NCBI GenBank assembly: GCA_017499595.2
Contig: CM039000.1
Coordinates: 620,001 to 684,000 of the forward strand
Length of the DNA: 64,000 nucleotides
Direction of reading: 5' to 3'
Origin: Psilocybe cubensis
Taxonomy: Eukaryota
The notes below the pieces were generated by a model. It ran no database searches. It was not told where the DNA came from and saw only the letters and a list, made by a program, of their open reading frames with translations. Each line of letters starts with the position of its first letter. Positions within the stretch are counted from its first letter, which is position 1. Made by a program: the position numbers and the translations under genes. Shown here piece after piece: positions 1-64,000 of this stretch.

Positions 1-1670
1 CAGTTTGAAGAGGTGTAGGGGGGATTTTGTGAGCTGAGGGGCTGGAATAGTATGAAATTTAAGTGATGAGTAGTGAAATTTGAGTGCTAAAACCTTGAGA
101 AAAGTTACACATTTCAAAAAATATTAAGCGCCCGAATAGACATCACACTGAATTGCGTGAACACAGCAATTCCAAAGGCATTCCTCAGGTATCTCTGTAT
201 AGCAGCAGATACTACCATACCCCTAATCACTCACATCGTGCATCCCATGTCAACAATCCCAAAAAATTCAACAAAATTTTCAACTCACGTACATACCAAC
301 ATCCTCCCCCTCCCCCGATTCGCGAATACAGCCCATTTCGAACGCCTCCCTTTCTTCCTGGTCTTTTCCGGCACTAACGGGGACCTGCTCGGCTAGGCTA
401 GGCTGCCGTCACCCGACCTAGAAGGACGGAAATGAAAGCAACCACTGACGGTCTTCAGCTGAATACACAAATGCAATGATACGTACCGTACAATTCTGCG
501 CGTTTTCCGCGTATTCCTGGCATTTAGGGTGTTTTAATACGTTACCTATGGTGTTATGCTGGTGTCTGGGCGTCGGATCGAAGGTTGAAAAGTCGTAAGG
601 TTTGTCTGGTTTCGTATTGCAAGTGTGCTCATGGAGCCGAATGCCCTCATTGTTGGAATAACGGGTTTACATGGTTTTTCAATGTCAGGTAGCCCCTGAG
701 TGATATGATAGATGCTCTTCAGTATGTGAGTATGTCTGCGAGACTTGTTGAGCTCGGAGCACGATGGAAAAGGGTGTACTGCGTATCAACTCCAAATAAG
801 CGCCGAGAACGTGCATATCTACATACAGTGCAAAACAACACTACACACACCTCTAGAAAGATGACAGGGGTAATAATACCTCTCAGCTCTACCCCTCCAA
901 ACCATCCACCCCGCGGAACCATCGAAACAGCTGAACCAATCACATCCGAATCTGCACCTCCTCTCCCAAATCCGCATTCCACCCCATTCCAACCGCATTT
1001 CTTTTCTTCCGGCTTCGGAATCTCACCACCTCGGCTACTCAGAGTCATAACGGCAGATCAGAAGAAGACAGCGGCGTTCAATTTGTCGCTGTGCAGAAGA
1101 CGAGTTTTACGGGTGTTGACTACAGAGCAAGTGTCCGCACTCCGGGAGAGCTAGAATGTGTCGTTTGTGTGATTATGGGTAGAATACGTATGGGTGGTGA
1201 ATTGAATGTACGTACTGGTTTCCCCGAGTCGTGAAGCATTTGAAAATTGTGGAAGATTTGGTGCTAAAGTTTTGTTATTCGTCGTTCAGGCAATTTTGAG
1301 GAAATGGAGTGTATCATGAATCCAGTACTTGTATTGTCCTGGTTTGCGTCTTCAAGCATTGTAAATCTTTATTCTTTATTGAGTTGAATATAATTCTCTC
1401 TTGAGCGCAATGCATCGACATCAGCTCAAACAAACAAATGTACGAAATCATATTTCACAATACAACACACCCACCCAAAGTTTCACTCACTGCAAACGGA
1501 GAAACCACATCCAATCTACAATCTCGACACACACGGACGATCGGACCACAACTCGCGTAACCCAAATCCGAACCCGCACTAACAAGCGACACCGAAAAAA
1601 AAAAAGAATCTGTATATTTCATTATTCGGTCTACTTACGACATGTAACAGGCGTACTAGTAACAGCCCCA

Positions 1671-3937
1671 CGCGGGTATATAAAGACCACGCACCTTGCT
1701 GGCCTTTCTTCATCCCCTCACCGCCTACTCTCCTCTGCCTCTTCAGCTCTCCTCTTCTTTTCTCTTCGGGCTTGGATGGCGCGTTCTGGCAGACGGTGAG
1801 CCTTCTAGTTCGTTCTCGACGGCGCTGACGTTGTGCACTATATAGGCATTGGTGAGTGATATTGACACGACGCCGAGGCGATTCTGACGCGTTTCTCATA
1901 GGCCCGCGCACCACGATGAAAACACCCCTCCTAACCTTGCCCGTAAAGGTGAGTTGCACCCACCCAACGATGCGCTGCTACTCACTTTGCTTCTCGCTGC
2001 ACAGAAAAGTAAGGATTTCCGTGAGTCGGGGCCCCTATGACACGCAGAGCGCTGACAACGCACCTTGACAGAATGGCCTCTCGATCCATCCACCTGACGG
2101 CGTGGGCTGGTTGATACCGTGAAGGTTGCTGGAAAGGTCCTAGACGGTGTGGACACGATAACGACGGTAAGTAGTAGGGCAATAACTAACAGATGCTTTA
2201 CTGACCCACCTTGAAATTAGATTCCCCGCCCGCCTCTGTCACTGCAAGTTGGATCCATTGGACTATGAGGGGACATAACATGCCCCCCAAATCCCGCTCC
2301 ACGGTGAGTGTCGAGAGCGACTGAAAGTGCTTGCTGATTAATCCGACGCTTGCTGGGGTAGACGACCCTACGCGGGTATAAAGACCACGGGTGTTGCTGG
2401 CATTCTTCATCTTTGGGCTTGGATGACGTGTTCGGGCAGACGGTGAGCTTTGTAGTCGACAGCGCTGACGTTGAGCACACCAGAGCCACCGTTTGAGGCG
2501 ACGGTGAGTAACATGCACACGATGCCAATGTGATTCTGACGCATTCCTCGTAGAAGTGCTATAGGTGCGTTGGTCACCGCAGAACGCTGACAACATACCT
2601 CGACAGAACACCACCTAGCCTGTCCCGCTCTGCCCAGACCAGCCAACACCGCTTCTCGCTACACAGACAAGGCATTGCCTACAGAATTTCTGTGAGTCGG
2701 GGCCCCTGATACGTAGAAAGCTGACGAAATACCTTGACAGAATGTCTTCTTGATCCATCCCGCTCCTCTCCCTGGCATAACGATTGACGGCGTGAAAAAA
2801 AAGAAGTTTAGATGCGTAACGAACTGCAGAGTACTGACCGTGCCGATTACTCCATCCCACACTCTCCTTGTATCCTTTCCCTCTCCGCATTGCCCCATAC
2901 CACCAATGACCGCGCGCAGCGACACTGTCTTGACGGCCGTCCAGAATGCATGCAGCTGAGGGGAGAGAGGTAAGCACAATCCCTCGCGGTCAAAAGAATT
3001 GTCAACTTACTGACCGGTGATACAAGCTGTTGAAAATTGACATGGCCTGCCCACACCATCGATGACCTGCGCTGTGTGCTGGATAGCGCGCAGTGACGCT
3101 GTCTTGACGGCCGCCCAGAATGCACACAGCTGAGGGAAAGCGGTAAGCACGGTCCCTTGAGGTTGAAAGAGTTGTCTACTGACCTGTGACACAAATCGAC
3201 CCCCTAGGTCCATGGATAGCGAGCAAAGACTCTTGACCGCAAGGTAAGCCGTCGATATAATAACCCAACCAACCTATTGACGCACCAATTGACCTCTAGT
3301 CGGGCACGACTGTATGCGCGAGCCTTGTTCTTTGAGGCGCAAGGAACCTTGGGTGTTGGTTAAAGGTATGCCCGCTCAGTTTGTCTGCGAAACTGTCTTG
3401 AATGGCGGGCTGAATGCTGCATGCACTGTGGCTTGACGGGGGTGGAAAGACTCTGCAAGGGTGCTGTCACTGGCTTGGGCATCCATCGCTTGTCCCATGA
3501 CGGCGGCGTGTCGACGTTGGGATCAACGTTGTTTAGTGATGAGTCTGCGTGCTGCCACATTCCCCTATACGGACATGCGGCCTCAAGCTGAGATCCAACA
3601 ACTGAGAAAGTCAAATATAAAAAGACGGACAATAACGTACCTCAGTTTCCCCTAGATGCTCACAAATATCAAGGTAGGCGAAGATCGGGGTGTGTGAGTG
3701 AGAAGACGAAGCGGGTAATATAGGTGCTGTGGGGATGAGGCGGAGAGTGCAACATGTGTCGCCTCCTTCATCTTCCAACGGAAAGGACTTGAGCGCAAGG
3801 TGCACGGCGTGACGGTGGTCAAGGAGCTCATCAAAAACGAAGGCCGACTGCCTTCTTCAAGGGGCTGACGCCAAAGGTATGCCAGTGTCCTACTTAGTTG
3901 CAATTCGCCGCATGCACCGCATCGACACAACGTCTAG
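1671..3937 (+). other. Intron-dense transcription unit without a long ORF (spliced ncRNA, small-peptide gene or decayed gene), copy 1
   Basis: TATA-like GTATATAAAG at ~1676, then GT..AG introns, most with a CTGAC/CTAAC-type branch point, at 1796-1845, 1852-1901, 1949-2004, 2021-2071, 2167-2220, 2304-2361, 2443-2483, 2504-2553, 2565-2606, 2692-2740, 2970-3026, 3143-3207, 3244-3299; weaker candidates with donors at 3366, 3674 and 3877. Confidence 0.6.
3791..3876 (+). pseudogene. Isolated exon fragment resembling the C-terminal part of mitochondrial GTP/GDP carrier GGC1 (frameshifted)
   Basis: ERKVHGVTVVKELIKNEG/TAFFKGLTPK followed by donor GTATGC; resembles the KNEG.TAFFKGLTPK motif I recall for fungal Ggc1. 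One base is missing after GAAGGC. Confidence 0.7.
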
Positions 3938-4639
3938 TGATTACTTGCTAAAACAGGTATACATACATCTCGTAGTGTAGAGTATGATTCAGGAGCACAT
4001 GCACAGCTGGTGGGGATAGATAGGGTAGGTAGGTTACTATAGGTGTAGTAGTAGTATGTCGGCTGTACACACATGAAAAAAGGTATAAGTGTTAACGTGA
4101 ATGTGAATCTGGGAAAACAAGGTCATAAAGATGGGAGAAAATTAAATATAGGAAATGTGCGGTCGGGTGTGCGTGCACACTATGCAGCAGAGGAGAACAC
4201 AACAGGCAGAAGGTAGAGGTGGATGATAACGAGGTGAACATGCCGAAGAAGAAGAAAAAGAGGAGAACAATGCAGAGGAGGGAAAATCGAGAACGAAATT
4301 GAAGGAAGACGAAACGAGAATCAAATCAGAACGGCTCGAAATCCAAAATCCAGTTCCGATTCCAATAGTTTTCTACAACAACTCTACTCTACAAAGATCT
4401 TCTACTTTTACAAATTCGTCTTCGACACGTCAACGCGTCGTCGACGATCACCCGCGTACCGCGCCACCTGCTCTGCAGTGGTCACTCGTCCTCGCACGCA
4501 CGCGTGCAAGTGCACAAATCAAGCACGACCGGTGAGTCTTTCTACTACATCAAAACAAAAAAAAGCAGAAACGGGGGAAAGAAATAGAAAACAAAAGGAG
4601 AAAGCGGGAACTGGACTGGACGATATACACGAGGGGCTT

Positions 4640-4660
4640 GGTGGTGGTGGTGGTGGTGGT
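4640..4660. repeat. (GGT)7 microsatellite; (GGT)6 in haplotype B
   Basis: Read directly; compare 15363-15380. Confidence 0.9.
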
Positions 4661-4917
4661 GGCAACAACAGACAGCATCGAGCGCCAGGCGGTCTAGGGA
4701 TGGACAGAAGGGATCCTCCGAGCATGCATGCACGCGCGTGTGCTCCCCTCCCTCTCATCCTCCGAGGTGTGATGTTGGCCCGCAAAAAGTGAATAGGTGC
4801 GTATGTGGGTGGAAATCAACTCCGGGTATCGGTTACTGAACTAGATGGGAAGGGGGGGAGGAGACTTGGACAGACATGTATGGTATGCAGGGAGGCACGA
4901 CGGAAGAAGGAGGGCGC

Positions 4918-6711
4918 TCAGAGTGAGAACCACTGCCTCTTCGCGTGAAGCCTCCTGTGCGCGGTGGTTGCAGCTACTTTCACCTGTGGCTCGGGCTCGG
5001 GCGATTTCTTGACGAGCACGCCCTCCTCCGGGGAGGGAAGCAAAGCGCGTCTCCTGCGCCTGCTCGAGCGCTTCTGGCAAGACGGGGCGGGGTTGCCGTT
5101 GTCGTTGCTGGTAGAAACAGAAGCAGCGGATGCAGAAGAAGCGGAGGCAGAGGCAGAGGAAGAAGCGCCTGCGGCGAGGTTGGCGGGGGCGGGGCTTGCA
5201 CCGGTGTTCCCACCTGAGTTTGCGTTGTTCGAGCCTGAGCCGTTGTTTGAGTTGGGTTTGTTCGAGCCCGAGTTGTTGTTGTTGGAGCCAGAATTGTTGG
5301 AACCGGAGTTGCCTGCGGGAGCACTCGGAGCGCCGGCAAAGATATCGTTCTGCGCGCCTGAAAAGAAGAATCGCAAAAAAACGCCAGGTCAGCCACTTAC
5401 AATCCGAAATAAAAAAAAAATAATCATTGAAACCAACCATCAGCGAAACCCAGCTTGGCATTGTATGCTGGAGACTTGAAGCTGCCTGAAAGGTCGTATC
5501 CACTGACAGCGATGTTGTTGCCCTCGTTCTGGTTCCAGTAAATCATCTGCTTCGAGCCCTTGACGCAGGCACCTGGGTTGCCCTCGCACCACACGGGTGG
5601 CTGTGGGGGTGCAATGGGCGTAGTGCTCTTCGCGCCGGTGACTTTGCACTTGAATGGCTGGTGGTACATGTTCGGCTGGCCGCAGCCGTTCGGGACCCAT
5701 CCCCACTGTGGAAAGAGTTAGACGAAAAATGTGAAGTTTGAATAGAAGTCGGCTTACAGCGCAGATGCAGCCTCCTTCAGGGCAGGCGGGCAAGTTGGCC
5801 GGGACATCGTAGCTGATAACGCGCTTCCAGGGTGTGCTGTGGGGGATTTTATTGATAAGCGTCATTGATTTATTTGCAAGGAATGAAAACCACTCACTTA
5901 TAACGAACAGTGAACACTGCAAGGTTCTGGGGAGTTACTGCCTTGATGTCAGACTAGAAAGTATTTGCAAAGTGAGCGCTAGATATGATTTTGAACGAGA
6001 GTTGGGGACTTGCGTTGTACGAGATTGCGAATGCGGTTCCGGCCGCCATAGACTGATTCTGGGCATGCACTGCACAAAAATGAATCAGCAAAAACGCCAA
6101 GAAACGAGGGCCGCTCACTGTTTGGGGACGTGATGCATGAAGGGACATTCTGTGAGGCACAGTGGGTTAATTAATCAGTTGCTAGGAATATGGGAAAGAC
6201 ACGCACATAGTCCTCGGGGTATGTCGCACCGTCTGGCCATTCTGAGGTGTCGCGCCCGTTGTACGCCAGCGTGGTCTTTGCGCGGTTGGAGGCGATCTCG
6301 ACGGTGAAGCTTCCACCAGCAGGACTGAAGTCGGGGTTTAGACGACGGAAATCAAAAATACAGGTGTGTTGGGACTCACAGCTCGAGGAAGTCCCCGTCT
6401 GCAGGAGGATATAGGTCACACTAGGTTAACAATTGCGTTGTTGATATGATGGACTGCAGAGTGTTGTTTAATGAGATGAACATAGCACAACGGCAAAACA
6501 CGTACACCACCAATCCTTAAAGTTGAGCTGGACAATCGCGTAGGAATTCAAGTCTTGCGCAGCTTGCGGACCCTATAGAAAGAATGTAGATTCTTCAGCG
6601 GTTCTGAACATTTTGAAATGAGGACTACATTCCTTTGTGGAAAGCTGCAAGATGGGCGTTGGCGCCGCTTAGCCACAAGGCCGCTGTGAGAAGGGTTGCA
6701 GCTCGAAACAT
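4918..6711 (-). pseudogene. AA14-like lytic polysaccharide monooxygenase, copy 1 (haplotype A), probable pseudogene
   Basis: Signal peptide MFRAATLLTAALWLSGANA followed directly by His (HLAAFHKGM). Manually spliced exons give ...DFLELPAGGSFTVEIASNRA...MHAQNQSMAAGTAFAISYNSDI...TPWKR...[36 protein letters not shown]...[13 protein letters not shown]...GFADGAQNDIF, which I recognise as AA14-type motifs, then an N/S/G/A-rich tail. TAG at 6625-6627, 12-bp exon deletion, intron 3 reduced to 16 nt. Confidence 0.85.
5954..6013 (-). other. GC-AG intron (60 nt) in the LPMO gene, present in all copies
   Basis: TAC AAC|GCAAGT...TTTCTAG|TCT GAC ATC gives in-frame AISYN-SDIKAV. Confidence 0.8.
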
Positions 6712-6839
6712 TGACTTGAACTTGTTGAGCCGCGTTGAAAAAGAGTGTGGTTGGCCTTGAAGAAAGTTTGGCGTAAACCGAGCGGGATGGTACAGGAAGG
6801 AGTCGTACAAGTCGTTGGAGTGAAAAGTTGACAGTCTAG

Positions 6840-6845
6840 TTTATA
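6840..6845 (-). promoter_or_regulatory. Candidate TATA box of the LPMO gene
   Basis: TATAAA on the minus strand about 130 bp upstream of the ATG at 6711; retained in both haplotypes. Confidence 0.4.
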
Positions 6846-7369
6846 AGCTAATCAGGAAGTGAGCGGATGGATGATACCCTGCGTTCATCATGGAAGAAGG
6901 GGAGGCAGACCACCTAAATTGATAGATTACTATTTATGATGTGCAGATGTTGCTTTTTCTGGCGAGTTTTTTCTCGGTAAAATGTCGAGATCTATTAATA
7001 GGCCAAAAAAAGAGCGTAGTCCATGCATTCCAACACCTTCAATTTATCGTACAAGCAGAGGTTAGCCCCGCCCGAAGGCCAGAATGGGGCGTAACCGGTC
7101 TATCTACAGGGAAATCACTCACCGGCGAAAATCTGTCAAGGTCACGGGACAAACATCCTACCACAACGACGGGTCATACGTGTTCTTCCCGGGTTGACAA
7201 TAGGCCCGCCTACGTCGTGTTAGAGGGTTCAAGGGCCCCGCGCGGGTCCACTTCAGAGGTGTCCAACAATAATCGCTAGAGCATACCCCTGCGTCAAAGC
7301 TCCCCGGACGCCATTATGTTGTGTCAGAGCATAGCGGGGTGACTCGAGGGTGCTGAACGGAAATTAGGG

Positions 7370-8090
7370 TGAGTCCTGCTCGCCGGGTCAAAGCAACGAT
7401 GTGTCGTGTTTGTCTAACGCCATACTGGTGCTGGGTGAGGAGTAGGCTGTATCCAGTTCGGCAGACAGCAATACATCTCCAGTTGGGTGGGTGCATAGCA
7501 CTGCCTCCAAAGAGGCTGGACAACATTGGATGAAGGAGGAGATGCGCGTCTTGCCGGACGGCAATACATGGATAAGAGTTGGGTAGATCCTACTCGCCGG
7601 AAGACGATATGCTGCATTGGGGCATATGTAGTCGAGACGAGCAAAGGGGAGAATTGAGCTCGCCGGACGGCGATACATAGCGTCAGCGCATAGTGGGTTA
7701 AATCCTGCTTGCCGCAAGACGATGCATCGCGTTGGAGCATCCGCTGGTTGCACATAGAGTCAAAACAAGCAAAGAGGAGGGCCCAGCTCGCCGGACGGCA
7801 ATACATAGCGTCAGAGCGTAGTTGGACAAGGAGTGTGGTGGATCCTGCTCGCCGGAAGACGACGCATTGCGTTGAAGCATCCGTTGGTCGCACATGGAGT
7901 CGATACGAGTAAAGGGGAGGGTCCAGCTCGCCGGACAGCGATATATCGTGTCGGGGCATTATTTGGTGTCCTTGGGACAAGCAAAGCGGGTGGGTTTAGC
8001 TCGCCGGACGACGATATGTTGCCTCAGAGCATCTTTAGGCATGCTGGCACTAGCGAGTCGCGGGGAAGAAATACATTGCGTCGGAGTAAT
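7370..8090. repeat. Degenerate direct-repeat field built on CTCGCCGGA(A/C)G(A/G)C(G/A)AT
   Basis: Motif variants near 7379, 7456, 7550, 7593, 7659, 7708, 7787, 7848, 7927 and 8000, spaced about 45-95 bp apart. Confidence 0.85.
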
Positions 8091-8446
8091 CTGGGTTATG
8101 GAAAACAGTTAAGCACATGTCTAGCACTCTGAACAGCAATACACTTACCAATACCATGGCCCTTTATTCTCAAGGCGAGTATCGATGCATAGCTTCAAGG
8201 CGAAACTGATACAAAGTCAGTACATGTTTTCAACACTATATCCAATGTCACATACCTCTTGGTTACCGCGCATTCCTTTACCAGCATTCGTCGGACACCC
8301 GAATCTCAAATTTGATTCTGCACACATTGTCAGTACTATATAAGTCTTTGAAGGTATAAAACTTACAAGGTTGAAACCAGATTACGTAGCCCGAGAGCCC
8401 AAGGTTGATACTAGAGCATGGCATAGGCAGAGTGCGATGCCAAGGA

Positions 8447-8570
8447 GGGTGCATGACGATGAGGAACGTCCACGACGAGGAGGGTGCACAACAATGGGTG
8501 CATGACGAGGAGGGTACGCAAAAAGAAAGGTGTGCAACGAGGGAGGTAACGACGAGGACGGGTACACGTC
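8447..8570. repeat. Short degenerate repeats (GACGAGGAGGGT(G/A)C-like)
   Basis: GGGTGCATGACGA occurs twice and GACGAGGA three times within about 120 bp. Confidence 0.6.
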
Positions 8571-9200
8571 GACGTACATCCAGCATTAGGGCATAATGCA
8601 CGGCTGGGTTTCATGAAATTCCAGTCCCTCTTTATACTCTTTTTTTCCAAGTTTTCAAGGTCACGTTGTAATTTTGCTGGCACATCACCTCATTTCTGTA
8701 GCTTCATCAATTAGACTAGTCTTCGCTTCACTCCAACTTCGTTTACGAAGTGTAAAATTTATTTTATGGAATGCCATAATTTGACTCTTAGGAGTCCGGG
8801 AATATGAGTGATTCCACTTCCCTGTTTGCTCTCCAACTTGAATTCCAAGGCAGAAGATCCTGCTACAAATGTCCGAAAACTGTCCACATCCACAAATTAC
8901 ATTCCATGCTCGAGCACTGGAACAGCCGCTTTCCATCCTCGTAAACTCGTATCATTGTGCTAGACCCGGAGATCCACTTACGCGTAGAAGGCCGTAGTTT
9001 TGTTGAACGTTGCTTCACAACATTACGTGCATTTACATCCAACATAACGTCCTGTACCGCTGGCACAACACGCGCATAATGCACATTCAGCATTCAGGTA
9101 TCCTGAATGCGACGCGACACATCTCATCCCGAGCAAAAAGACCCTGAACGCGAGCACCCCTAAACGCGAATTGGTTTCGGATAACAAAGTCAGCTGAACT

Positions 9201-9226
9201 TGACGCGACGCGTCGGACGCGTGTCA
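9201..9226. promoter_or_regulatory. ACGCGT-rich palindrome (TGAC-GCG-ACGCGTC-G-GACGCGT-GTCA), possible promoter element
   Basis: Perfect 7-bp inverted repeat containing two ACGCGT (MCB-like) sites, with more CGCG motifs at 9110-9170; core unchanged in all six units. Confidence 0.4.
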
Positions 9227-12184
9227 GGGCAGAGCTGAGCTGTTTAATCTAATGACGCACATTTTCGTAACAAGCGCTGCTTCCTTTGAAACCCGCTTTT
9301 GGAATAGTCGCGCTAGCGCCCGATCCGTGTCATCGCGATTCCGGATTCACGATCCTTGATTCAAGCCTAATTTTAAATCTGGGCAGACCAACATCCAGGC
9401 CCACATTTACATAAATGCTTGCTGGAGAGCTTTCTACTACGTCTGGGGGTCATTTTTGATGTAGCGACTGTAATTGAAGGTGTTTTCATGGGAGTTAAAT
9501 ATAACTCTGGCTTGTTTTCAATGTAAATATAACTAAATCTCGAGGTATACTCTACAGACATTGTTTGTGGGCATACCGGTAAGTCAGGTTGCATCCGCAT
9601 ACTCGCTGACTATCTGTAGCACTGTATAGATTTGATATACGCGCTCAGATAAATATTCAGTACACTCTGCGGCCGAAAATCCGTCTCGGAAACGGATACT
9701 TAAATAACTCGTGCAGGGGTTCCTTGAGCCCCTGTTCCGCTCTTGAACGCAAATTTCAAGTCTATGTCAGGATTTTAGCTCAATGAGGCTAGTGCCTCGG
9801 CTGCTCGGAGCCATCACAATGTTCAGCGGAGACTCTGAAGTTTCGGAGGATTGAGAAAAATACAGTGACGTGGCATTCGAATTCACGGTAGTTTGACCTC
9901 CATAAGGCGTCTGTGAGTTGAATAGTGTACCATAGAGTGTGAATAGAAGACAATATGATAAAATCCACTTGTAACTAACAGAATAAATTGAAATCTCTTG
10001 TGAATTTTCAAGTACTCGTCCTAAAATCGACTGCAAGCAATTTCATCCGCAGAATATAGATTACAACAAGCCCACAGGCAGGGTATGGTGTACCAGTACT
10101 GATATATTACCTAGAATAGTCCAAAATCACTCACAGGAAGCAATGACATTTGTTTGACATATAAACCAATGACATTCTCCTCCTCCCCCGATACGTCAAT
10201 TTACGTCGTTTCAGTCGTTTCCATTCCATCCGTACCTTATTATAGATTAGCCTAGCACCCTTCGGCTCGCGAATAACGTTGTGAATCGGTCCTCTAGAGC
10301 CCAGAAGAACGTAGTTGATTGGATACAGTGCAGGCGGGTAATAACAACGTGGCATGCGTACCGCGGCCGTTTGCTGCATACTCGCCATTTGAGGCGGTTT
10401 GGCGGATGCGTATAGGTGTAGTAATGCGTGGTTGAAGAGATGATGCGCCGTGGTGCAAGGAAAAATCGACAATTTGGAGTTATTCACGTCGAGCCGTGAA
10501 ATGGTGTAAATCGCGCATTCCCGCAGTTTGAAGAGGTGTAGGGGGGATTTTGTGAGCTGAGGGGTTGGAATAGTATGAAATTTAAGTGATGAGTAGTGAA
10601 ATTTGAGTGCTGAAACCTTGAGAAAAGTTACACATTTCAAAAAATATTAAGCGCCCGAATAGACATCACACTGAATTGCGTGAATACAGCAATTCCAAAG
10701 GCATTCCTCAGGTATCTCTGTATAGCAGCAGAACCCCTAATCACTCACATCGTGCATCCCATGTCAACAATCCCAAAAAATTCAACAAAATTTTCAACTC
10801 ACGTACATACCAACATCCTCCCCCTCCCCCGATTCGCGAATACAGCCCATTTCGAACGCCTCCCTTTCTTCCTGGTCTTTTCCGGCACTAACGGGGACCT
10901 GCTCGGCTAGGCTAGGCTGCCGTCACCCGACCTAGAAGGACGGAAATGAAAGCAACCACTGACGGTCTTCAGCTGAATACACAAATGCAATGATACGTAC
11001 CGTACAATTCTGCGCGTTTTCCGCGTATTCCTGGCATTTAGGGTGTTTTAATACGTTACCTATGGTGTTATGCTGGTGTCTGGGCGTCGGATCGAAGGTT
11101 GAAAAGTCGTAAGGTTTGTCTGGTTTCGTATTGCAAGTGTGCTCATGGAGCCGAATGCCCTCATTGTTGGAATAACGGGTTTACATGGTTTTTCAATGTC
11201 AGGTAGCCCCTGAGTGATATGATAGATGCTCTTCAGTATGTGAGTATGTCTGCGAGACTTGTTGAGCTCGGAGCACGATGGAAAAGGGTGTACTGCGTAT
11301 CAACTCCAAATAAGCGCCGAGAACGTGCATATCTACATACAGTGCAAAACAACACTACACACACCTCTAGAAAGATGACAGGGGTAATAATACCTCTCAG
11401 CTCTACCCCTCCAAACCATCCACCCCGCGGAACCATCGAAACAGCTGAACCAATCACATCCGAATCTGCACCTCCTCTCCCAAATCCGCATTCCACCCCA
11501 TTCCAACCGCATTTCTTTTCTTCCGGCTTCGGAATCTCACCACCTCGGCTACTCAGAGTCATAACGGCAGATCAGAAGAAGACAGCGGCGTTCAATTTGT
11601 CGCTGTGCAGAAGACGAGTTTTACGGGTGTTGACTACAGAGCAAGTGTCCGCACTCCGGGAGAGCTAGAATGTGTCGTTTGTGTGATTATGGGTAGAATA
11701 CGTATGGGTGGTGAATTGAATGTACGTACTGGTTTCCCCGAGTCGTGAAGCATTTGAAAATTGTGGAAGATTTGGTGCTAAAGTTTTGTTATTCGTCGTT
11801 CAGGCAATTTTGAGGAAATGGAGTGTATCATGAATCCAGTACTTGTATTGTCCTGGTTTGCGTCTTCAAGCATTGTAAATCTTTATTCTTTATTGAGTTG
11901 AATATAATTCTCTCTTGAGCGCAATGCATCGACATCAGCTCAAACAAACAAATGTACGAAATCATATTTCACAATACAACACACCCACCCAAAGTTTCAC
12001 TCACTGCAAACGGAGAAACCACATCCAATCTACAATCTCGACACACACGGACGATCGGACCACAACTCGCGTAACCCAAATCCGAACCCGCACTAACAAG
12101 CGACACCGAAAAAAAAAAAGAATCTGTATATTTCATTATTCGGTCTACTTACGACATGTAACAGGCGTACTAGTAACAGCCCCA

Positions 12185-14469: not shown

Positions 14470-14586
14470 TAATTACTTGCTAAAACAGGTATACATACAT
14501 CTCGTAGTGTAGAGTATGATTCAGGAGCACAGCTGGTGGGGATAGATAGGGTAGGTAGGTTACTATAGGTGTAGTAGTATGTCGGC

Positions 14587-14803
14587 TGTACATACATACA
14601 TACATACATACACTGCATGTATATGTACACCAATAGACAATGGAGGTATGACAGTAATAAGATAGCCTGTGAAGGGCGTAGAGTGTGATATGATGGGGGT
14701 AGTCGTACACGCCCGGTATGGATGGATGGACGTGTATGGGAATATCATGTAAGGGAAGGATAGGCGTGGGTTGGGAGGCAATAGAAGTCTAGGAGGAGAA
14801 AAA
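14587..14803. other. ~215-bp segment with a (TACA)n microsatellite, present only in haplotype B units
   Basis: Unit 1 reads GGCTGTACACACATGAAAAAAGGTATAAG at 4061-4090; units 2-4 carry the extra block there. Confidence 0.85.
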
Positions 14804-51538: not shown

Positions 51539-51714
51539 TCGCCGGAAGACGATACGTTGCGTTGGGGCATATGTTGGTGGCACATAAAGTCGACACGAGC
51601 AAAGGGGAGAATTGAGCTCGCCGGAAGGCGATACGTTGCGTTGGGGCATACGTTGGTTGCACATGAAGTCGAGACGAGCAAAGGGGAGGGTCCAGCTCGC
51701 CGGAAGGCGATACA
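51539..51714. repeat. 79-bp minisatellite, about 2 diverged copies
   Basis: Repeat heads at 51589 and 51668, preceded by a repeat tail. Confidence 0.85.
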
Positions 51715-54700: not shown

Positions 54701-56261
54701 CATTTCAAAAAATATTAAGCGCCCGAATAGACATCACACTGAATTGCGTGAACACAGCAATTCCAAAGGCATTCCTCAGGTATCTCTGTATAGCAGCAGA
54801 TACTACCATACCCCTAATCACTCACATCGTGCATCCCATGTCAACAATCCCAAAAAATTCAACAAAATTTTCAACTCACGTACATACCAACATCCTCCCC
54901 CTCCCCCGATTCGCGAATACAGCCCATTTCGAACGCCTCCCTTTCTTCCTGGTCTTTTCCGGCACTAACGGGGACCTGCTCGGCTAGGCTAGGCTGCCGT
55001 CACCCGACCTAGAAGGACGGAAATGAAAGCAACCACTGACGGTCTTCAGCTGAATACACAAATGCAATGATACGTACCGTACAATTCTGCGCGTTTTCCG
55101 CGTATTCCTGGCATTTAGGGTGTTTTAATACGTTACCTATGGTGTTATGCTGGTGTCTGGGCGTCGGATCGAAGGTTGAAAAGTCGTAAGGTTTGTCTGG
55201 TTTCGTATTGCAAGTGTGCTCATGGAGCCGAATGCCCTCATTGTTGGAATAACGGGTTTACATGGTTTTTCAATGTCAGGTAGCCCCTGAGTGATATGAT
55301 AGATGCTCTTCAGTATGTGAGTATGTCTGCGAGACTTGTTGAGCTCGGAGCACGATGGAAAAGGGTGTACTGCGTATCAACTCCAAATAAGCGCCGAGAA
55401 CGTGCATATCTACATACAGTGCAAAACAACACTACACACACCTCTAGAAAGATGACAGGGGTAATAATACCTCTCAGCTCTACCCCTCCAAACCATCCAC
55501 CCCGCGGAACCATCGAAACAGCTGAACCAATCACATCCGAATCTGCACCTCCTCTCCCAAATCCGCATTCCACCCCATTCCAACCGCATTTCTTTTCTTC
55601 CGGCTTCGGAATCTCACCACCTCGGCTACTCAGAGTCATAACGGCAGATCAGAAGAAGACAGCGGCGTTCAATTTGTCGCTGTGCAGAAGACGAGTTTTA
55701 CGGGTGTTGACTACAGAGCAAGTGTCCGCACTCCGGGAGAGCTAGAATGTGTCGTTTGTGTGATTATGGGTAGAATACGTATGGGTGGTGAATTGAATGT
55801 ACGTACTGGTTTCCCCGAGTCGTGAAGCATTTGAAAATTGTGGAAGATTTGGTGCTAAAGTTTTGTTATTCGTCGTTCAGGCAATTTTGAGGAAATGGAG
55901 TGTATCATGAATCCAGTACTTGTATTGTCCTGGTTTGCGTCTTCAAGCATTGTAAATCTTTATTCTTTATTGAGTTGAATATAATTCTCTCTTGAGCGCA
56001 ATGCATCGACATCAGCTCAAACAAACAAATGTACGAAATCATATTTCACAATACAACACACCCACCCAAAGTTTCACTCACTGCAAACGGAGAAACCACA
56101 TCCAATCTACAATCTCGACACACACGGACGATCGGACCACAACTCGCGTAACCCAAATCCGAACCCGCACTAACAAGCGACACCGAAAAAAAAAAAGAAT
56201 CTGTATATTTCATTATTCGGTCTACTTACGACATGTAACAGGCGTACTAGTAACAGCCCCA

Positions 56262-58528
56262 CGCGGGTATATAAAGACCACGCACCTTGCTGGCCTTTCT
56301 TCATCCCCTCACCGCCTACTCTCCTCTGCCTCTTCAGCTCTCCTCTTCTTTTCTCTTCGGGCTTGGATGGCGCGTTCTGGCAGACGGTGAGCCTTCTAGT
56401 TCGTTCTCGACGGCGCTGACGTTGTGCACTATATAGGCATTGGTGAGTGATATTGACACGACGCCGAGGCGATTCTGACGCGTTTCTCATAGGCCCGCGC
56501 ACCACGATGAAAACACCCCTCCTAACCTTGCCCGTAAAGGTGAGTTGCACCCACCCAACGATGCGCTGCTACTCACTTTGCTTCTCGCTGCACAGAAAAG
56601 TAAGGATTTCCGTGAGTCGGGGCCCCTATGACACGCAGAGCGCTGACAACGCACCTTGACAGAATGGCCTCTCGATCCATCCACCTGACGGCGTGGGCTG
56701 GTTGATACCGTGAAGGTTGCTGGAAAGGTCCTAGACGGTGTGGACACGATAACGACGGTAAGTAGTAGGGCAATAACTAACAGATGCTTTACTGACCCAC
56801 CTTGAAATTAGATTCCCCGCCCGCCTCTGTCACTGCAAGTTGGATCCATTGGACTATGAGGGGACATAACATGCCCCCCAAATCCCGCTCCACGGTGAGT
56901 GTCGAGAGCGACTGAAAGTGCTTGCTGATTAATCCGACGCTTGCTGGGGTAGACGACCCTACGCGGGTATAAAGACCACGGGTGTTGCTGGAATTCTTCA
57001 TCTTTGGGCTTGGATGACGTGTTCGGGCAGACGGTGAGCTTTGTAGTCGACAGCGCTGACGTTGAGCACACCAGAGCCACCGTTTGAGGCGACGGTGAGT
57101 AACATGCACACGATGCCAATGTGATTCTGACGCATTCCTCGTAGAAGTGCTATAGGTGCGTTGGTCACCGCAGAACGCTGACAACATACCTCGACAGAAC
57201 ACCACCTAGCCTGTCCCGCTCTGCCCAGACCAGCCAACACCGCTTCTCGCTACACAGACAAGGCATTGCCTACAGAATTTCTGTGAGTCGGGGCCCCTGA
57301 TACGTAGAAAGCTGACGAAATACCTTGACAGAATGTCTTCTTGATCCATCCCGCTCCTCTCCCTGGCATAACGATTGACGGCGTGAAAAAAAAGAAGTTT
57401 AGATGCGTAACGAACTGCAGAGTACTGACCGTGCCGATTACTCCATCCCACACTCTCCTTGTATCCTTTCCCTCTCCGCATTGCCCCATACCACCAATGA
57501 CCGCGCGCAGCGACACTGTCTTGACGGCCGTCCAGAATGCATGCAGCTGAGGGGAGAGAGGTAAGCACAATCCCTCGCGGTCAAAAGAATTGTCAACTTA
57601 CTGACCGGTGATACAAGCTGTTGAAAATTGACATGGCCTGCCCACACCATCGATGACCTGCGCTGTGTGCTGGATAGCGCGCAGTGACGCTGTCTTGACG
57701 GCCGCCCAGAATGCACACAGCTGAGGGAAAGCGGTAAGCACGGTCCCTTGAGGTTGAAAGAGTTGTCTACTGACCTGTGACACAAATCGACCCCCTAGGT
57801 CCATGGATAGCGAGCAAAGACTCTTGACCGCAAGGTAAGCCGTCGATATAATAACCCAACCAACCTATTGACGCACCAATTGACCTCTAGTCGGGCACGA
57901 CTGTATGCGCGAGCCTTGTTCTTTGAGGCGCAAGGAACCTTGGGTGTTGGTTAAAGGTATGCCCGCTCAGTTTGTCTGCGAAACTGTCTTGAATGGCGGG
58001 CTGAATGCTGCATGCACTGTGGCTTGACGGGGGTGGAAAGACTCTGCAAGGGTGCTGTCACTGGCTTGGGCATCCATCGCTTGTCCCATGACGGCGGCGT
58101 GTCGACGTTGGGATCAACGTTGTTTAGTGATGAGTCTGCGTGCTGCCACATTCCCCTATACGGACATGCGGCCTCAAGCTGAGATCCAACAACTGAGAAA
58201 GTCAAATATAAAAAGACGGACAATAACGTACCTCAGTTTCCCCTAGATGCTCACAAATATCAAGGTAGGCGAAGATCGGGGTGTGTGAGTGAGAAGACGA
58301 AGCGGGTAATATAGGTGCTGTGGGGATGAGGCGGAGAGTGCAACATGTGTCGCCTCCTTCATCTTCCAACGGAAAGGACTTGAGCGCAAGGTGCACGGCG
58401 TGACGGTGGTCAAGGAGCTCATCAAAAACGAAGGCCGACTGCCTTCTTCAAGGGGCTGACGCCAAAGGTATGCCAGTGTCCTACTTAGTTGCAATTCGCC
58501 GCATGCACCGCATCGACACAACGTCTAG
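56262..58528 (+). other. Intron-dense unit, copy 6
   Basis: Homologous to copy 1. Confidence 0.55.
58382..58467 (+). pseudogene. GGC1-like exon fragment, copy 6 (frameshifted)
   Basis: Same as 3791-3876. Confidence 0.65.
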
Positions 58529-59508
58529 TGATTACTTGCTAAAACAGGTATACATACATCTCGTAGTGTAGAGTATGATTCAGGAGCACATGCACAGCTG
58601 GTGGGGATAGATAGGGTAGGTAGGTTACTATAGGTGTAGTAGTAGTATGTCGGCTGTACACACATGAAAAAAGGTATAAGTGTTAACGTGAATGTGAATC
58701 TGGGAAAACAAGGTCATAAAGATGGGAGAAAATTAAATATAGGAAATGTGCGGTCGGGTGTGCGTGCACACTATGCAGCAGAGGAGAACACAACAGGCAG
58801 AAGGTAGAGGTGGATGATAACGAGGTGAACATGCCGAAGAAGAAGAAAAAGAGGAGAACAATGCAGAGGAGGGAAAATCGAGAACGAAATTGAAGGAAGA
58901 CGAAACGAGAATCAAATCAGAACGGCTCGAAATCCAAAATCCAGTTCCGATTCCAATAGTTTTCTACAACAACTCTACTCTACAAAGATCTTCTACTTTT
59001 ACAAATTCGTCTTCGACACGTCAACGCGTCGTCGACGATCACCCGCGTACCGCGCCACCTGCTCTGCAGTGGTCACTCGTCCTCGCACGCACGCGTGCAA
59101 GTGCACAAATCAAGCACGACCGGTGAGTCTTTCTACTACATCAAAACAAAAAAAAGCAGAAACGGGGGAAAGAAATAGAAAACAAAAGGAGAAAGCGGGA
59201 ACTGGACTGGACGATATACACGAGGGGCTTGGTGGTGGTGGTGGTGGTGGTGGCAACAACAGACAGCATCGAGCGCCAGGCGGTCTAGGGATGGACAGAA
59301 GGGATCCTCCGAGCATGCATGCACGCGCGTGTGCTCCCCTCCCTCTCATCCTCCGAGGTGTGATGTTGGCCCGCAAAAAGTGAATAGGTGCGTATGTGGG
59401 TGGAAATCAACTCCGGGTATCGGTTACTGAACTAGATGGGAAGGGGGGGAGGAGACTTGGACAGACATGTATGGTATGCAGGGAGGCACGACGGAAGAAG
59501 GAGGGCGC

Positions 59509-61302
59509 TCAGAGTGAGAACCACTGCCTCTTCGCGTGAAGCCTCCTGTGCGCGGTGGTTGCAGCTACTTTCACCTGTGGCTCGGGCTCGGGCGATTTCT
59601 TGACGAGCACGCCCTCCTCCGGGGAGGGAAGCAAAGCGCGTCTCCTGCGCCTGCTCGAGCGCTTCTGGCAAGACGGGGCGGGGTTGCCGTTGTCGTTGCT
59701 GGTAGAAACAGAAGCAGCGGATGCAGAAGAAGCGGAGGCAGAGGCAGAGGAAGAAGCGCCTGCGGCGAGGTTGGCGGGGGCGGGGCTTGCACCGGTGTTC
59801 CCACCTGAGTTTGCGTTGTTCGAGCCTGAGCCGTTGTTTGAGTTGGGTTTGTTCGAGCCCGAGTTGTTGTTGTTGGAGCCAGAATTGTTGGAACCGGAGT
59901 TGCCTGCGGGAGCACTCGGAGCGCCGGCAAAGATATCGTTCTGCGCGCCTGAAAAGAAGAATCGCAAAAAAACGCCAGGTCAGCCACTTACAATCCGAAA
60001 TAAAAAAAAAATAATCATTGAAACCAACCATCAGCGAAACCCAGCTTGGCATTGTATGCTGGAGACTTGAAGCTGCCTGAAAGGTCGTATCCACTGACAG
60101 CGATGTTGTTGCCCTCGTTCTGGTTCCAGTAAATCATCTGCTTCGAGCCCTTGACGCAGGCACCTGGGTTGCCCTCGCACCACACGGGTGGCTGTGGGGG
60201 TGCAATGGGCGTAGTGCTCTTCGCGCCGGTGACTTTGCACTTGAATGGCTGGTGGTACATGTTCGGCTGGCCGCAGCCGTTCGGGACCCATCCCCACTGT
60301 GGAAAGAGTTAGACGAAAAATGTGAAGTTTGAATAGAAGTCGGCTTACAGCGCAGATGCAGCCTCCTTCAGGGCAGGCGGGCAAGTTGGCCGGGACATCG
60401 TAGCTGATAACGCGCTTCCAGGGTGTGCTGTGGGGGATTTTATTGATAAGCGTCATTGATTTATTTGCAAGGAATGAAAACCACTCACTTATAACGAACA
60501 GTGAACACTGCAAGGTTCTGGGGAGTTACTGCCTTGATGTCAGACTAGAAAGTATTTGCAAAGTGAGCGCTAGATATGATTTTGAACGAGAGTTGGGGAC
60601 TTGCGTTGTACGAGATTGCGAATGCGGTTCCGGCCGCCATAGACTGATTCTGGGCATGCACTGCACAAAAATGAATCAGCAAAAACGCCAAGAAACGAGG
60701 GCCGCTCACTGTTTGGGGACGTGATGCATGAAGGGACATTCTGTGAGGCACAGTGGGTTAATTAATCAGTTGCTAGGAATATGGGAAAGACACGCACATA
60801 GTCCTCGGGGTATGTCGCACCGTCTGGCCATTCTGAGGTGTCGCGCCCGTTGTACGCCAGCGTGGTCTTTGCGCGGTTGGAGGCGATCTCGACGGTGAAG
60901 CTTCCACCAGCAGGACTGAAGTCGGGGTTTAGACGACGGAAATCAAAAATACAGGTGTGTTGGGACTCACAGCTCGAGGAAGTCCCCGTCTGCAGGAGGA
61001 TATAGGTCACACTAGGTTAACAATTGCGTTGTTGATATGATGGACTGCAGAGTGTTGTTTAATGAGATGAACATAGCACAACGGCAAAACACGTACACCA
61101 CCAATCCTTAAAGTTGAGCTGGACAATCGCGTAGGAATTCAAGTCTTGCGCAGCTTGCGGACCCTATAGAAAGAATGTAGATTCTTCAGCGGTTCTGAAC
61201 ATTTTGAAATGAGGACTACATTCCTTTGTGGAAAGCTGCAAGATGGGCGTTGGCGCCGCTTAGCCACAAGGCCGCTGTGAGAAGGGTTGCAGCTCGAAAC
61301 AT
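59509..61302 (-). pseudogene. AA14-like LPMO, copy 6 (haplotype A)
   Basis: Same sequence as copy 1 at offset +54591. Confidence 0.85.
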
Positions 61303-62184
61303 TGACTTGAACTTGTTGAGCCGCGTTGAAAAAGAGTGTGGTTGGCCTTGAAGAAAGTTTGGCGTAAACCGAGCGGGATGGTACAGGAAGGAGTCGTACA
61401 AGTCGTTGGAGTGAAAAGTTGACAGTCTAGTTTATAAGCTAATCAGGAAGTGAGCGGATGGATGATACCCTGCGTTCATCATGGAAGAAGGGGAGGCAGA
61501 CCACCTAAATTGATAGATTACTATTTATGATGTGCAGATGTTGCTTTTTCTGGCGAGTTTTTTCTCGGTAAAATGTCGAGATCTATTAATAGGCCAAAAA
61601 AAGAGCGTAGTCCATGCATTCCAACACCTTCAATTTATCGTACAAGCAGAGGTTAGCCCCGCCCGAAGGCCAGAATGGGGCGTAACCGGTCTATCTACAG
61701 GGAAATCACTCACCGGCGAAAATCTGTCAAGGTCACGGGACAAACATCCTACCACAACGACGGGTCATACGTGTTCTTCCCGGGTTGACAATAGGCCCGC
61801 CTACGTCGTGTTAGAGGGTTCAAGGGCCCCGCGCGGGTCCACTTCAGAGGTGTCCAACAATAATCGCTAGAGCATACCCCTGCGTCAAAGCTCCCCGGAC
61901 GCCATTATGTTGTGTCAGAGCATAGCGGGGTGACTCGAGGGTGCTGAACGGAAATTAGGGTGAGTCCTGCTCGCCGGGTCAAAGCAACGATGTGTCGTGT
62001 TTGTCTAACGCCATACTGGTGCTGGGTGAGGAGTAGGCTGTATCCAGTTCGGCAGACAGCAATACATCTCCAGTTGGGTGGGTGCATAGCACTGCCTCCA
62101 AAGAGGCTGGACAACATTGGATGAAGGAGGAGATGCGCGTCTTGCCGGACAGCAATACATGGATAAGAGTTGGGTAGATCCTAC

Positions 62185-62360
62185 TCGCCGGAAGACGATA
62201 CGTTGCGTTGGGGCATATGTTGGTGGCACATAAAGTCGACACGAGCAAAGGGGAGAATTGAGCTCGCCGGAAGGCGATACGTTGCGTTGGGGCATACGTT
62301 GGTTGCACATGAAGTCGAGACGAGCAAAGGGGAGGGTCCAGCTCACCGGAAGGCGATACA
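62185..62360. repeat. 79-bp minisatellite, about 2 diverged copies
   Basis: Repeat heads at 62235 and 62314. Confidence 0.85.
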
Positions 62361-64000
62361 TGGCGTCGGCGCATAGCTGGATACGTAGTGGGTTAAATCC
62401 TGCTTGCCGGAAGACGATGCTTCGCGTTGGAGCATCCGCTGGTTGCACATAGAGTCAAAACAAGCAAAGAGGAGGGCCCAGCTCGCCGGACGGCAATACA
62501 TAGCGTCAGAGCGTAGTTGGACAAGGAGTGTGGTGGATCCTGCTCGCCGGAAGACGTTGCATTGCGTTGAAGCATCCGTTGGTTGCACATGGAGTCGATA
62601 CGAGTAAAGGGGAGGGTCCAGCTCGCCGGACAGCGATATATCGTGTCGGGGCATTATTTGGTGTCCTTGGGACAAGCAAAGCGGGTGGGTTTAGCTCGCC
62701 GGACGACGATATGTTGCCTCAGAGCATCTTTAGGCATGCTGGCACTAGCGAGTCGCGGGAAAGAAATATATCGCGTCGGAGTAATCTGAGTTATGGAAAA
62801 CAGTTAAGCACATGTCTAGCACTGTGAACAGCAATACACTTACCAATACCACAGCCCTTTATTCTCAAGGCGAGAATCAATGCATAGCTTCAAGGCAAAA
62901 CTGATACAAAGTCAGTACATGTTTTCAACACTATATCCAATGTCACATACCTCTTGGTTACCATGCATTCCTTTACCAGCATTCGTCGGACACCCGAATC
63001 TCAAATTTGATTCTGCACACATTGTCAGTACTTATAAGTCTTTGAAGCGTATAAAACTTACAAGGTTGAAACCAGAATACATCGCCCGAGAGACCTAGGT
63101 TGATACTAGAGCATGGCATAGACAGAGTGCGATGCCAAGGAGGGTGCATGACGATGAGGAACGTCCACGACAAGGAGGGTGCACAACAATGGGTGCATGA
63201 CGAGGAGGGTACGCAAAAAGAAAGGTGTGCAACGAGGGAGGTAACGACGAGGACGGGTACACGTCGACGTACATCCAGCATTAGGGCATAATGCACGGCT
63301 GGTGTTCATGAAATTCCAGTCCCTCTTTATACTCTTTTTTTACCAAGTTTTCAAGGTCACGTTGTATTTTCGCTGGCACATCACCTCATTTCTGTAGCTT
63401 CATCAATTACACTAGTCTTCGCTTCACTCCAACTTCGTTTACGAAGTGTAAAATTTATTTATTGGAATGCCATAATTTGACTCTTAGGAGTCCGGGAATA
63501 TGAGTGATTCCACTTCCCTGTTTGCTCTCCAACTTGAATTCCAAGGCAGAAGATCCTGCTACAAATGTCCGAAAACTGTCCACATCCACAAATTACATTC
63601 CATGCTCGAGCACTGGAACAGCCGCTTTCGATCCTCGTAAACTCGTATCATTGTGCTAGACCCGGAGATCCACTTACGCGTAGAAGGCCGTAGTTTTGTT
63701 GAACGTTGCTTCACAACATTACGTGCATTTACATCCAACATAACGTCCTGCACCGCTGGCACAACACGCGCACACGGCATGCAGGTATTCTGAATTCGAC
63801 GCGACGCATCTCATCCACAACGCCAGAAAGCAAAAAGACCCTGAACGCCCCTAAACGCGAATTGACTCCGAAAATAACAAAGTCACTTGAACTCGACGCG
63901 ACGCGTCGGACGCGTGTCAGGGCAGCTGAGCTGTTTAATCTAATGACGCACATTTTCGTAACAAGCGCTGCTTCCTTTGAAACCCGCTTTTGGAATAGTC

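What the first reader, a model, noticed from the sequence alone, without database searches (positions are those of the whole stretch)
1..64000. Recently amplified ~11-kb gene-bearing tandem array (at least 6 units) that is not rDNA
Seen: six near-identical head-to-tail units, each with an LPMO gene copy, an orphan carrier exon, an intron-dense unit and a repeat field; I recognised no transposase. Inference: this mix of unrelated gene pieces in a tandemly amplified unit suggests a non-autonomous cargo-carrying element (Helitron-like rolling-circle or eccDNA-type amplification) or a gene-bearing macrosatellite, rather than selection for gene dosage.
Basis: partly seen in the sequence, partly recalled or inferred. 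Interest (0 to 1): 0.8.

Follow-up and report, generated by a model that had tools for sequence, protein, structure and literature searches.

The report
Mobile element duplicating kilobases of genes
A mushroom genome carries a family of long non-coding mobile elements that, where they sit, are flanked by two copies of several thousand bases of the surrounding genes, and these paired copies have then recombined into long tandem arrays such as this one, a route to gene duplication that I did not find described for such an element family.

Summary
The array is real but is not gene cargo. It reads R-(U-R)x13 over about 150 kb (C3:563.7-713.3 kb). R is local host DNA (mitochondrial-carrier gene plus AA14 LPMO); U is a 7.2-7.7 kb non-coding insert. 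Three of four other runs laid show the empty site (single R, no U tail); one holds the array. U belongs to a family with a conserved structured end: 69 copies at 23 loci, 11 of them arrays. At 14 of 19 loci tested, U is flanked by a direct 0.4-5 kb duplication of different host genes, like a giant target-site duplication. Inner R copies are chimeras of the two outer ones, so unequal crossing-over grew the array. Only 1 of 14 LPMO copies (outside the window) is intact, so dosage selection is out. No Helitron termini, TIRs, poly(A) or coding partner were found; the mobilising enzyme is unknown (reverse transcriptase in trans is my best guess, about 40%). Closest precedents: Dualen LINE long duplications and the ToxB unit-junction array. 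This scan noted a Rho1 array in this genome before; it is the same family, unrecognised then.

The parts
1..3756 (+). U copy 5 (partial; begins left of the window): body and TATA/intron module
3757..6895 (.). R copy 6: duplicated host segment (carrier relic plus broken LPMO 4918-6711 on -)
6896..14288 (+). U copy 6, non-coding element including junction linker; conserved end starts 6954
14289..17702 (.). R copy 7 (broken LPMO 15651-17495 on -)
17703..25386 (+). U copy 7; conserved end starts 17761
23279..25386 (+). TATA box plus intron-dense non-coding module and locus-specific tail of U (shown for copy 7; one in each U)
   Evidence: 6 strict introns on + against 0 on -, longest spliced ATG frame 83 aa; last 1.4 kb has no match outside the array
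25387..28800 (.). R copy 8: duplicated host segment
25387..25506 (+). Mitochondrial-carrier relic: 33 bp from the start codon joined to a 104-bp piece reaching into the next intron; 1,172 and 832 bp of the parental gene are missing (one in each R in the window)
26749..28593 (-). AA14 LPMO pseudogene (20-bp deletion removes the end of exon 1 and its splice donor)
28801..36642 (+). U copy 8
28859..29012 (.). Conserved family end of U with a long stem and a near-invariant inner hairpin (one in each U: starts 6954, 17761, 28859, 40116, 50899, 61545)
29534..30278 (+). 79/140-bp repeat field of U (copy number varies between units)
36643..40057 (.). R copy 9 (broken LPMO 38006-39850 on -)
40058..47701 (+). 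U copy 9
47702..50840 (.). R copy 10 (broken LPMO 48863-50656 on -)
50841..58347 (+). U copy 10
58348..61486 (.). R copy 11 (broken LPMO 59509-61302 on -)
61487..64000 (+). U copy 11 (partial; continues right of the window)

Best explanation
Two steps. Step 1: a non-autonomous, non-coding mobile element U (about 7.5 kb, one conserved structured end, one variable end) inserted at the carrier-LPMO locus, and about 5.4 kb of target DNA was duplicated as direct repeats on its two sides (R-U-R), a giant target-site duplication. Shown: the architecture, the empty site, and the same pattern at other loci. Inferred: that duplication and insertion were one event, made by joining U's two ends to 3' ends that lie kilobases apart (staggered nicks or a broken fork). 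Step 2: unequal crossing-over between the R repeats expanded R-U-R to R-(U-R)13 and still changes the number. Shown by chimeric inner copies and identical runs of units. The enzyme of step 1 is not shown. My split: target-primed reverse transcription in trans by a Penelope-like or LINE reverse transcriptase about 40%, host break repair copying from another U about 25%, an HUH/Helitron2-type nickase about 20%, other about 15%.
For: Array ends: intact carrier gene then R at the left, R running into unique flank at the right; 14 R for 13 U. Empty site: run X8 has one 19.8-kb contig from the parental carrier 3' flank through LPMO into the right flank at even depth; raw reads X14 and X15 give R depth equal to flank depth (30 v 28; 28 v 30) and about zero on the U tail; X5 holds the U tail and the R|U junction. 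Family: core 16-mer has 69 matches against 2 for the control, at 23 loci, 11 of them arrays with 7.4-11 kb basic periods. Direct flanking duplication of host DNA at 14 of 19 loci tested; none of that kind in 110 kb of nearby control DNA. Polarity: over 8 loci, 18 of 36 deletions in the left R fall in the fifth next to U, 16 of 25 in the right R likewise. Templated direct pieces of R at 3 of 12 junctions examined. Inner LPMO copies carry the right copy's carrier deletions and subsets of the left copy's 5' deletions. Precedent for kb-scale target duplications: Dualen-4b, median 900 bp (PMC9977147).
Against: 5 of 19 loci show no direct flanking duplication within 6 kb upstream and 12-14 kb downstream. 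No coding partner shares U's end: no detected Helitron or APE-LINE lies within 10 kb of a motif copy, and 4 LINE 3' ends and the flanks of 2 Helitrons do not match. U has no poly(A), hammerhead or telomeric tract at its ends, and keeps its introns. U copies at different loci are mostly 65-84% alike while their R pairs are mostly 94-98% alike, so either R pairs are being homogenised or the source copies are missing from this genome. The junction-near deletions could also come from relaxed selection next to U; their microhomology is only slightly raised (mean 1.6 v 0.8 nt). The empty site was tested at this locus only. No de novo insertion was observed.
Confidence: 0.72

Rival explanations
1. 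Helitron-like route (first reader; ToxB-HLE model): U inserts next to R, rolling-circle read-through copies U+R in tandem, and a later crossover removes the terminal U, leaving R-(U-R)n.
For: One fixed and one variable end suit one-ended rolling-circle movement. U's inner hairpin resembles the FoHeli1 5' hairpin quoted in PMC5148889. Autonomous Helitrons with 1,958 and 2,808 aa frames are in the genome. The same unit-junction-unit layout was read this way for ToxB.
Against: No 5' TC, no terminal hairpin+CTRR, no inverted 10-mers between the ends; the hairpin lies over 100 bp inside the end. Five single-U loci are already R-U-R, each needing a clean loss of a second U. The LPMO segment was found only at its own locus (a limited search). 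Sampled Helitron flanks do not match U.
Confidence: 0.11
2. U is not a transposon with a dedicated enzyme. U paralogues act as templates in host break repair (template switching), or U's structured end is a fragile site, so U-filled tandem duplications arise as repair products.
For: Templated pieces and serial short deletions at junctions look like repair scars. No partner enzyme found. U bodies are very diverged, and the second subfamily shares little but the end.
Against: The same end of U abuts the end of the left R within about 100 bp at every aligned locus, and the end stays conserved while bodies decay, which points to a recognised terminus. Random repair would not start at one fixed position.
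Confidence: 0.12
3. Plain segmental duplication of an ancestral carrier-LPMO-U block, kept by selection for LPMO dosage.
For: Tandem array with a secreted enzyme gene in each unit.
Against: U tail is absent at the empty site in 3 of 4 runs; 13 of 14 LPMO copies are broken; the same U end recurs at 23 loci with different genes.
Confidence: 0.03
4. Assembly artefact.
For: Several units are identical, so the exact number 13 could be off; no long read was available.
Against: At least eight distinct U haplotypes; two junction types; run X5 of another study holds the U tail and both junction forms at several times flank depth.
Confidence: 0.02

Closest known systems
Dualen-4b_cRei LINE of Chlamydomonas reinhardtii (PMC9977147; passages and section 8 read, Supplemental Fig. 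S7 not seen)
   Same: Insertion flanked on both sides by a long, variable direct duplication of target DNA.
   Different: Dualen encodes RT with APE and RLE endonucleases; duplications have a median of 900 bp. U is non-coding, keeps introns, has no poly(A), duplicates 0.4-5 kb including whole genes, and has seeded 11 tandem arrays.
ToxB unit / 251-bp 'sequence junction' array of Pyrenophora tritici-repentis, ToxB-HLE (bioRxiv 10.1101/2025.11.13.688278; abstract and sections 12, 16, 20 read, supplements closed)
   Same: Host unit - foreign junction - host unit, junction absent in single-copy isolates, copy number changed by unequal crossing-over.
   Different: One locus, 251-bp junction, intact identical gene copies with a dosage effect, read as Helitron-like. 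Here the junction is 6-9 kb, forms a dispersed family at 23 loci, and the extra gene copies are broken.
Endonuclease-deficient Penelope-like elements (Coprina, Athena, Terminons) (PMC3846280, PMC6431247, PMC8557442; passages read)
   Same: Keep introns, can prime at chromosome ends or breaks, form co-oriented chains; U-like bodies occur in this genome's Coprina-capped chromosome ends.
   Different: U has no hammerhead, pLTR or telomeric tract at its ends; no kb-scale target duplication is reported for them in the passages read.
Fungal Helitron2 (FoHeli) and Pleurotus HELPO Helitrons (PMC5148889 passages; PMC4289320 search listing only)
   Same: Asymmetric ends, a small GC hairpin with a GAA-type loop, association with host gene pieces.
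   Different: Helitrons make no target duplication and carry captured pieces inside; U's hairpin is subterminal, with no ATIR or CTRR found.

Membership tests
Helitron1 | 5' TC and 3' hairpin followed by CTRR | tested here: not met
   neither end of U nor the end of R shows it
Helitron1/2 | No target-site duplication; captured genes lie inside the element | tested here: not met
   host DNA is duplicated on both sides at 14 of 19 loci; empty site single
Helitron2 | Asymmetric terminal inverted repeat plus terminal hairpins | tested here: inconclusive
   no inverted 10-mer between first 300 and last 400 bp; inner hairpin resembles FoHeli1's but is subterminal
Helitron1/2 | RepHel partner with the same termini | tested here: inconclusive
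   22 Rep matches in the genome, none beside a motif copy; flanks of only 2 elements compared, no match
LINE / Dualen | RT and endonuclease ORF | tested here: not met
   no conserved open frame among U copies; no RT-like frame in the U bodies read
LINE / Dualen | Long variable direct target duplication | tested here: met
   0.4-5 kb at 14 of 19 loci
LINE-dependent non-autonomous element | 3' tail (poly(A) or simple repeat) and 3' end shared with a partner LINE | tested here: not met
   no tail at either end; 4 of 21 APE-domain loci compared, no shared end
Penelope-like (Coprina type) | pLTR with hammerhead and reverse-complement telomeric repeats | tested here: not met
   canonical hammerheads found in the Coprina pLTRs but not at U ends
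Penelope-like (Coprina type) | Intron retention in genomic copies | tested here: met
   6 strict introns in the module; also expected for any DNA-based element
Penelope-like (Coprina type) | Mobilisation by the PLE reverse transcriptase | not testable with these tools
   only circumstantial: U-like bodies co-oriented in Coprina chains
TIR DNA transposon / Pack-type element | Terminal inverted repeats and 2-10 bp target duplication | tested here: not met
   family ends align at one end only
rDNA array | rRNA genes in the unit | tested here: not met
   (two full units scanned)
AA14 LPMO | PF22810 match, signal peptide followed by N-terminal His | tested here: met
   copy 14 gives a 428-aa frame with His at residue 20 after a hydrophobic leader (leader judged by eye); the other 13 copies are broken

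The most novel reading that the evidence does not exclude
U defines an undescribed class of long non-coding mobile elements whose normal insertion reaction duplicates kilobases of target DNA, recognised only through a ~150-bp structured end and mobilised in trans (possibly by the endonuclease-free Coprina reverse transcriptase acting at internal breaks or forks). They act as a genome-wide gene-duplication and array-seeding engine that differs between strains.
Probability: 0.35. Interest if true: 0.9.

Novelty: new variant of a known kind. Interest (0 to 1): 0.76.

Why it matters
It gives one cause for at least 11 tandem gene arrays and several single duplications in one mushroom genome, touching housekeeping genes (a Rho GTPase, amino-acid and nucleotide enzymes by translated motifs). 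Such elements escape repeat finders: the long target duplications look like LTRs or segmental duplications, the bodies are non-coding and diverged, and only a ~150-bp end is shared. Because strains differ in presence and copy number, the insertion reaction and the array dynamics can be studied directly. It also widens the known size range of target-site duplications from a median of 900 bp (Dualen) to whole genes, and offers an alternative reading of unit-junction-unit arrays such as ToxB.

Tried and rejected
tblastx among 7 U copies gave no conserved open frame (output partly cut). Rfam: nothing at family threshold. Fold z-scores of the conserved end are about zero on both strands, and RNAalifold found 10 pairs with no double-sided change, so which strand is structured is open; by eye the 3' arm of the stem is rebuilt in three divergent copies. 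A simple HDV-ribozyme descriptor found 0 hits in 21 U regions. Hammerhead pattern: none convincing in U. Two exact-pattern scans of metagenome contigs for the end motif: 0 hits each. A covariance model was built but the genome cannot be searched with it. The long Coprina-like frames matched neither Pfam nor PDB (one frame), so that label rests on recalled RT motifs, hammerhead-plus-telomere pLTRs and earlier notes. The co-orientation of U-like bodies with Coprina at contig ends (11 of 13 pieces within about 130 kb of an end point inwards, my count with contig lengths; C15 and C2 left out; not independent) was kept only as a lead, since Coprina also caps truncated ordinary DNA. Terminons paper PMC5850863 is not held. 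PMC9674265, PMC5640933 and PMC7943196 (passages) gave nothing on this architecture.
Full report
OBSERVATION. The window is C3:620,001-684,000 of a 46.6-Mb, 21-contig genome. Earlier notes of this scan call the organism Psilocybe cubensis; I did not check this. Self-BLAST confirms head-to-tail units at 96-99.9% identity, with periods of 10.6-11.3 kb in the window. Each unit has an AA14 LPMO gene (PF22810), a mitochondrial-carrier relic (PF00153; the name GGC1 is recalled, not tested), an intron-dense non-coding module and a 79/140-bp repeat field. No rRNA was found in two units.

ARRAY ENDS. With 100 kb fetched on each side, the array runs from C3:563,739 to 713,311. At the left lies an intact carrier gene followed by a convergent LPMO gene. 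At the right an LPMO copy runs into unique DNA. The unit therefore has two parts: R, the host segment from the carrier start codon to the LPMO promoter (5.4 kb in copy 1; 3.1-3.5 kb in copies 2-14, which lack 1,172 and 832 bp of the carrier gene), and U, 7.2-7.7 kb of other DNA. There are 14 R and 13 U. A 4.15-kb hAT-like element sits in the first U only.

EMPTY SITE AND POLYMORPHISM. Four of 15 listed runs were laid on C3:707,001-717,000. X8 has one 19,832-bp contig that enters from the parental carrier 3' flank (its loose end equals C3:565,850-565,879), crosses LPMO and continues into the right flank at even depth. Raw reads X14 and X15 give R and flank the same depth (30 v 28 and 28 v 30) and about zero on the U tail, while the shared U body is four to five times deeper from other family members. 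X5, from another study than X14/X15, holds the U tail and the R|U junction, with contig depths of 295 (tail), 334 (R) and 86 (flank); the tool warns these are not copy numbers, so I read them only as 'several copies'. So the ancestral locus is carrier-LPMO-flank, U is an insertion, and the array is real and differs between strains.

THE FAMILY. Segments of U match many loci. All share a conserved end of about 150 bp with a long stem and a near-invariant inner hairpin. Its 16-bp core has 69 matches against 2 for the reversed control, at 23 loci; 11 loci are arrays holding 57 copies. A second subfamily shares only part of the end. Bodies are non-coding and 65-84% alike or unalignable; the last 1.3-2.5 kb is locus-specific. 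I tested 19 loci for a direct duplication around U. Fourteen have one: this locus; C3:848-885k (3.5 kb); C13:401-413k (2.15 kb, 98.1%); C13:631-645k (about 3 kb); C13:218-234k (3.84 kb, 97.2%); C7:2.639-2.662M (3.25 kb); C9:3.017-3.030M (2.4 kb, 96.9%); C6:223k (about 2 kb); C6:48k (415 bp); C6:2.774M (about 1.6 kb); C11:439-505k (3.3 kb); C9:1.636M; C10:1.010-1.034M (1.75 kb); C7:2.753-2.795M (2.3 kb). Both array ends were seen for 11 of the 14, one end for 3 (C6:223k, C6:2.774M, C9:1.636M). Five loci have none (C1:4.197M, C6:3.552M, C8:2.650M, 2.699M, 2.812M); three of these lie in inverted structures and the two outer C8 loci are inverted copies of each other. Four loci were not tested at their ends. 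The duplicated genes differ from locus to locus (names judged from translated frames by recall). In 110 kb of control DNA beside the array no comparable duplication of 90% or more occurs. The C6:225-316k array carries Rho-type motifs and is most likely the Rho1 array of note e1-7270353.

JUNCTION SCARS. Over 8 loci, deletions of 4 nt or more in the R before U fall 5, 5, 4, 4, 18 by fifth towards U; in the R after U they fall 16, 1, 4, 4, 0 away from U. The 34 junction-near deletions at 7 loci are 5-25 nt but for one of 196 nt, with mean microhomology 1.6 against 0.8 nt at random (one repeat slip with 11 nt raises the mean). At 3 of 12 junctions examined, 12-31-nt pieces copied in direct orientation from 0.6-2 kb inside R lie between R and U. 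These fit error-prone extension of 3' ends during insertion, but relaxed selection beside U can also explain the direction of the deletions.

GENES AND GROWTH. Only LPMO copy 14 (start codon C3:713,066, outside the window) is intact: 11 exons, 428 aa. The other 13 have lost the start codon, the end of exon 1 or splice sites. Copy 1 has five 5' deletions; inner copies carry subsets of them together with the carrier deletions that mark the right-hand copy. That is the chimera expected from crossing-over between the left and right R. U copies 3-5 and 11 have no substitution between them, as have 12-13, while others differ by up to 210 SNPs and are mosaic: an older insertion with recent turnover. 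One working carrier gene (left) and one working LPMO (right) remain, so the array is close to neutral for gene content.

MECHANISM. Shown: insertion of U, duplication of R, recombinational growth. Inferred: one event joins U's ends to 3' ends kilobases apart. The enzyme is unknown. For reverse transcription in trans: asymmetry of the ends, the Dualen precedent (PMC9977147), statements that endonuclease-free Penelope-like elements prime at breaks and keep introns (PMC3846280), and U-like bodies in Coprina-capped contig ends, in one case starting 5 bp after a hammerhead pLTR and six telomere repeats. Against: no poly(A), hammerhead or telomeric tract on U, no shared end with 4 LINEs, and Coprina also caps truncated host DNA (note e1-7271727), which would explain that case. 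For an HUH route: hairpin likeness to FoHeli1 (PMC5148889) and intact Helitrons in the genome; against: no TC/CTRR/ATIR and five single-U loci that are already R-U-R.

NOVELTY. Ten literature searches of an open-access library found two partial precedents, Dualen long duplications and the ToxB unit-junction array, and no description of a dispersed non-coding family that does this at many loci in a basidiomycete. Subscription journals and Repbase were not searchable, and the supplements of both precedents were not seen. I file it as a new variant of a known kind (mobile element with very long target duplication), not as a member of any tested family. If the mobiliser proves new, it would be a new class.

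VERDICT. Observation confirmed; interpretation partly supported; interest 0.76.

Noticed in passing
L005:9330-10000 and L006:1-3479 (C3:569,330-573,479): hAT-like transposon (4.15 kb, TIRs, hAT dimerisation domain E 0.0012) inserted exactly at the inner border of U's conserved end, with a 7-bp duplication plus 5 inverted bases on its right side.
   Followed up: partly
L007:4130-4200 (C3 units 2-5): Second junction type: R runs about 70 bp further into the right flank and is followed by a templated piece of the LPMO last exon; run X5 shows the same joint.
   Followed up: yes
L066-L071 (C4:44-63 kb): Chain of co-oriented U-like bodies of several subfamilies without the conserved end, inside a 33.6-kb duplication that also holds a host oxidoreductase-like gene and ends at Coprina pLTRs.
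   Followed up: partly
L059-L065 (C15) and L072-L078 (C8:3.24-3.31 Mb): Coprina-type retroelement chains with canonical hammerheads of two kinds and telomere repeats; a 1,006-aa frame without Pfam match in the C15 29.4-kb unit.
   Followed up: partly
window 29013-29035 and the same place in other family members: A splice-donor-like motif on the minus strand recurs about 15-20 bp inside the conserved end in most subfamily-1 members; subfamily 2 has an acceptor-like motif further out, so the hairpin may lie in a minus-strand intron.
   Followed up: no
L014:3200-4550 (C3:717,199-718,542): 1.34-kb near-perfect palindrome made of a 666-bp element in tandem and inverted arrangement, 4 kb right of the array.
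   Followed up: no
L004:8840-9906 and L014:1011-2082: An older 74%-identical direct gene duplication (about 1.1 kb plus) brackets the whole locus, 4 kb left and 1.7 kb right of the array.
   Followed up: no
L091-L096 (C8:2.65-2.81 Mb) and L053-L054 (C1:4.18-4.20 Mb): U ends here are tied to inverted duplications (a 160-kb-scale inverted pair on C8; near-perfect inverted repeats on C1) instead of direct ones; possibly another outcome of the same reaction.
   Followed up: partly
L083 and L090: The same insert with Spt5-like KOW/NGN domains interrupts both the C6:2.79M and the C11:505k arrays.
   Followed up: no
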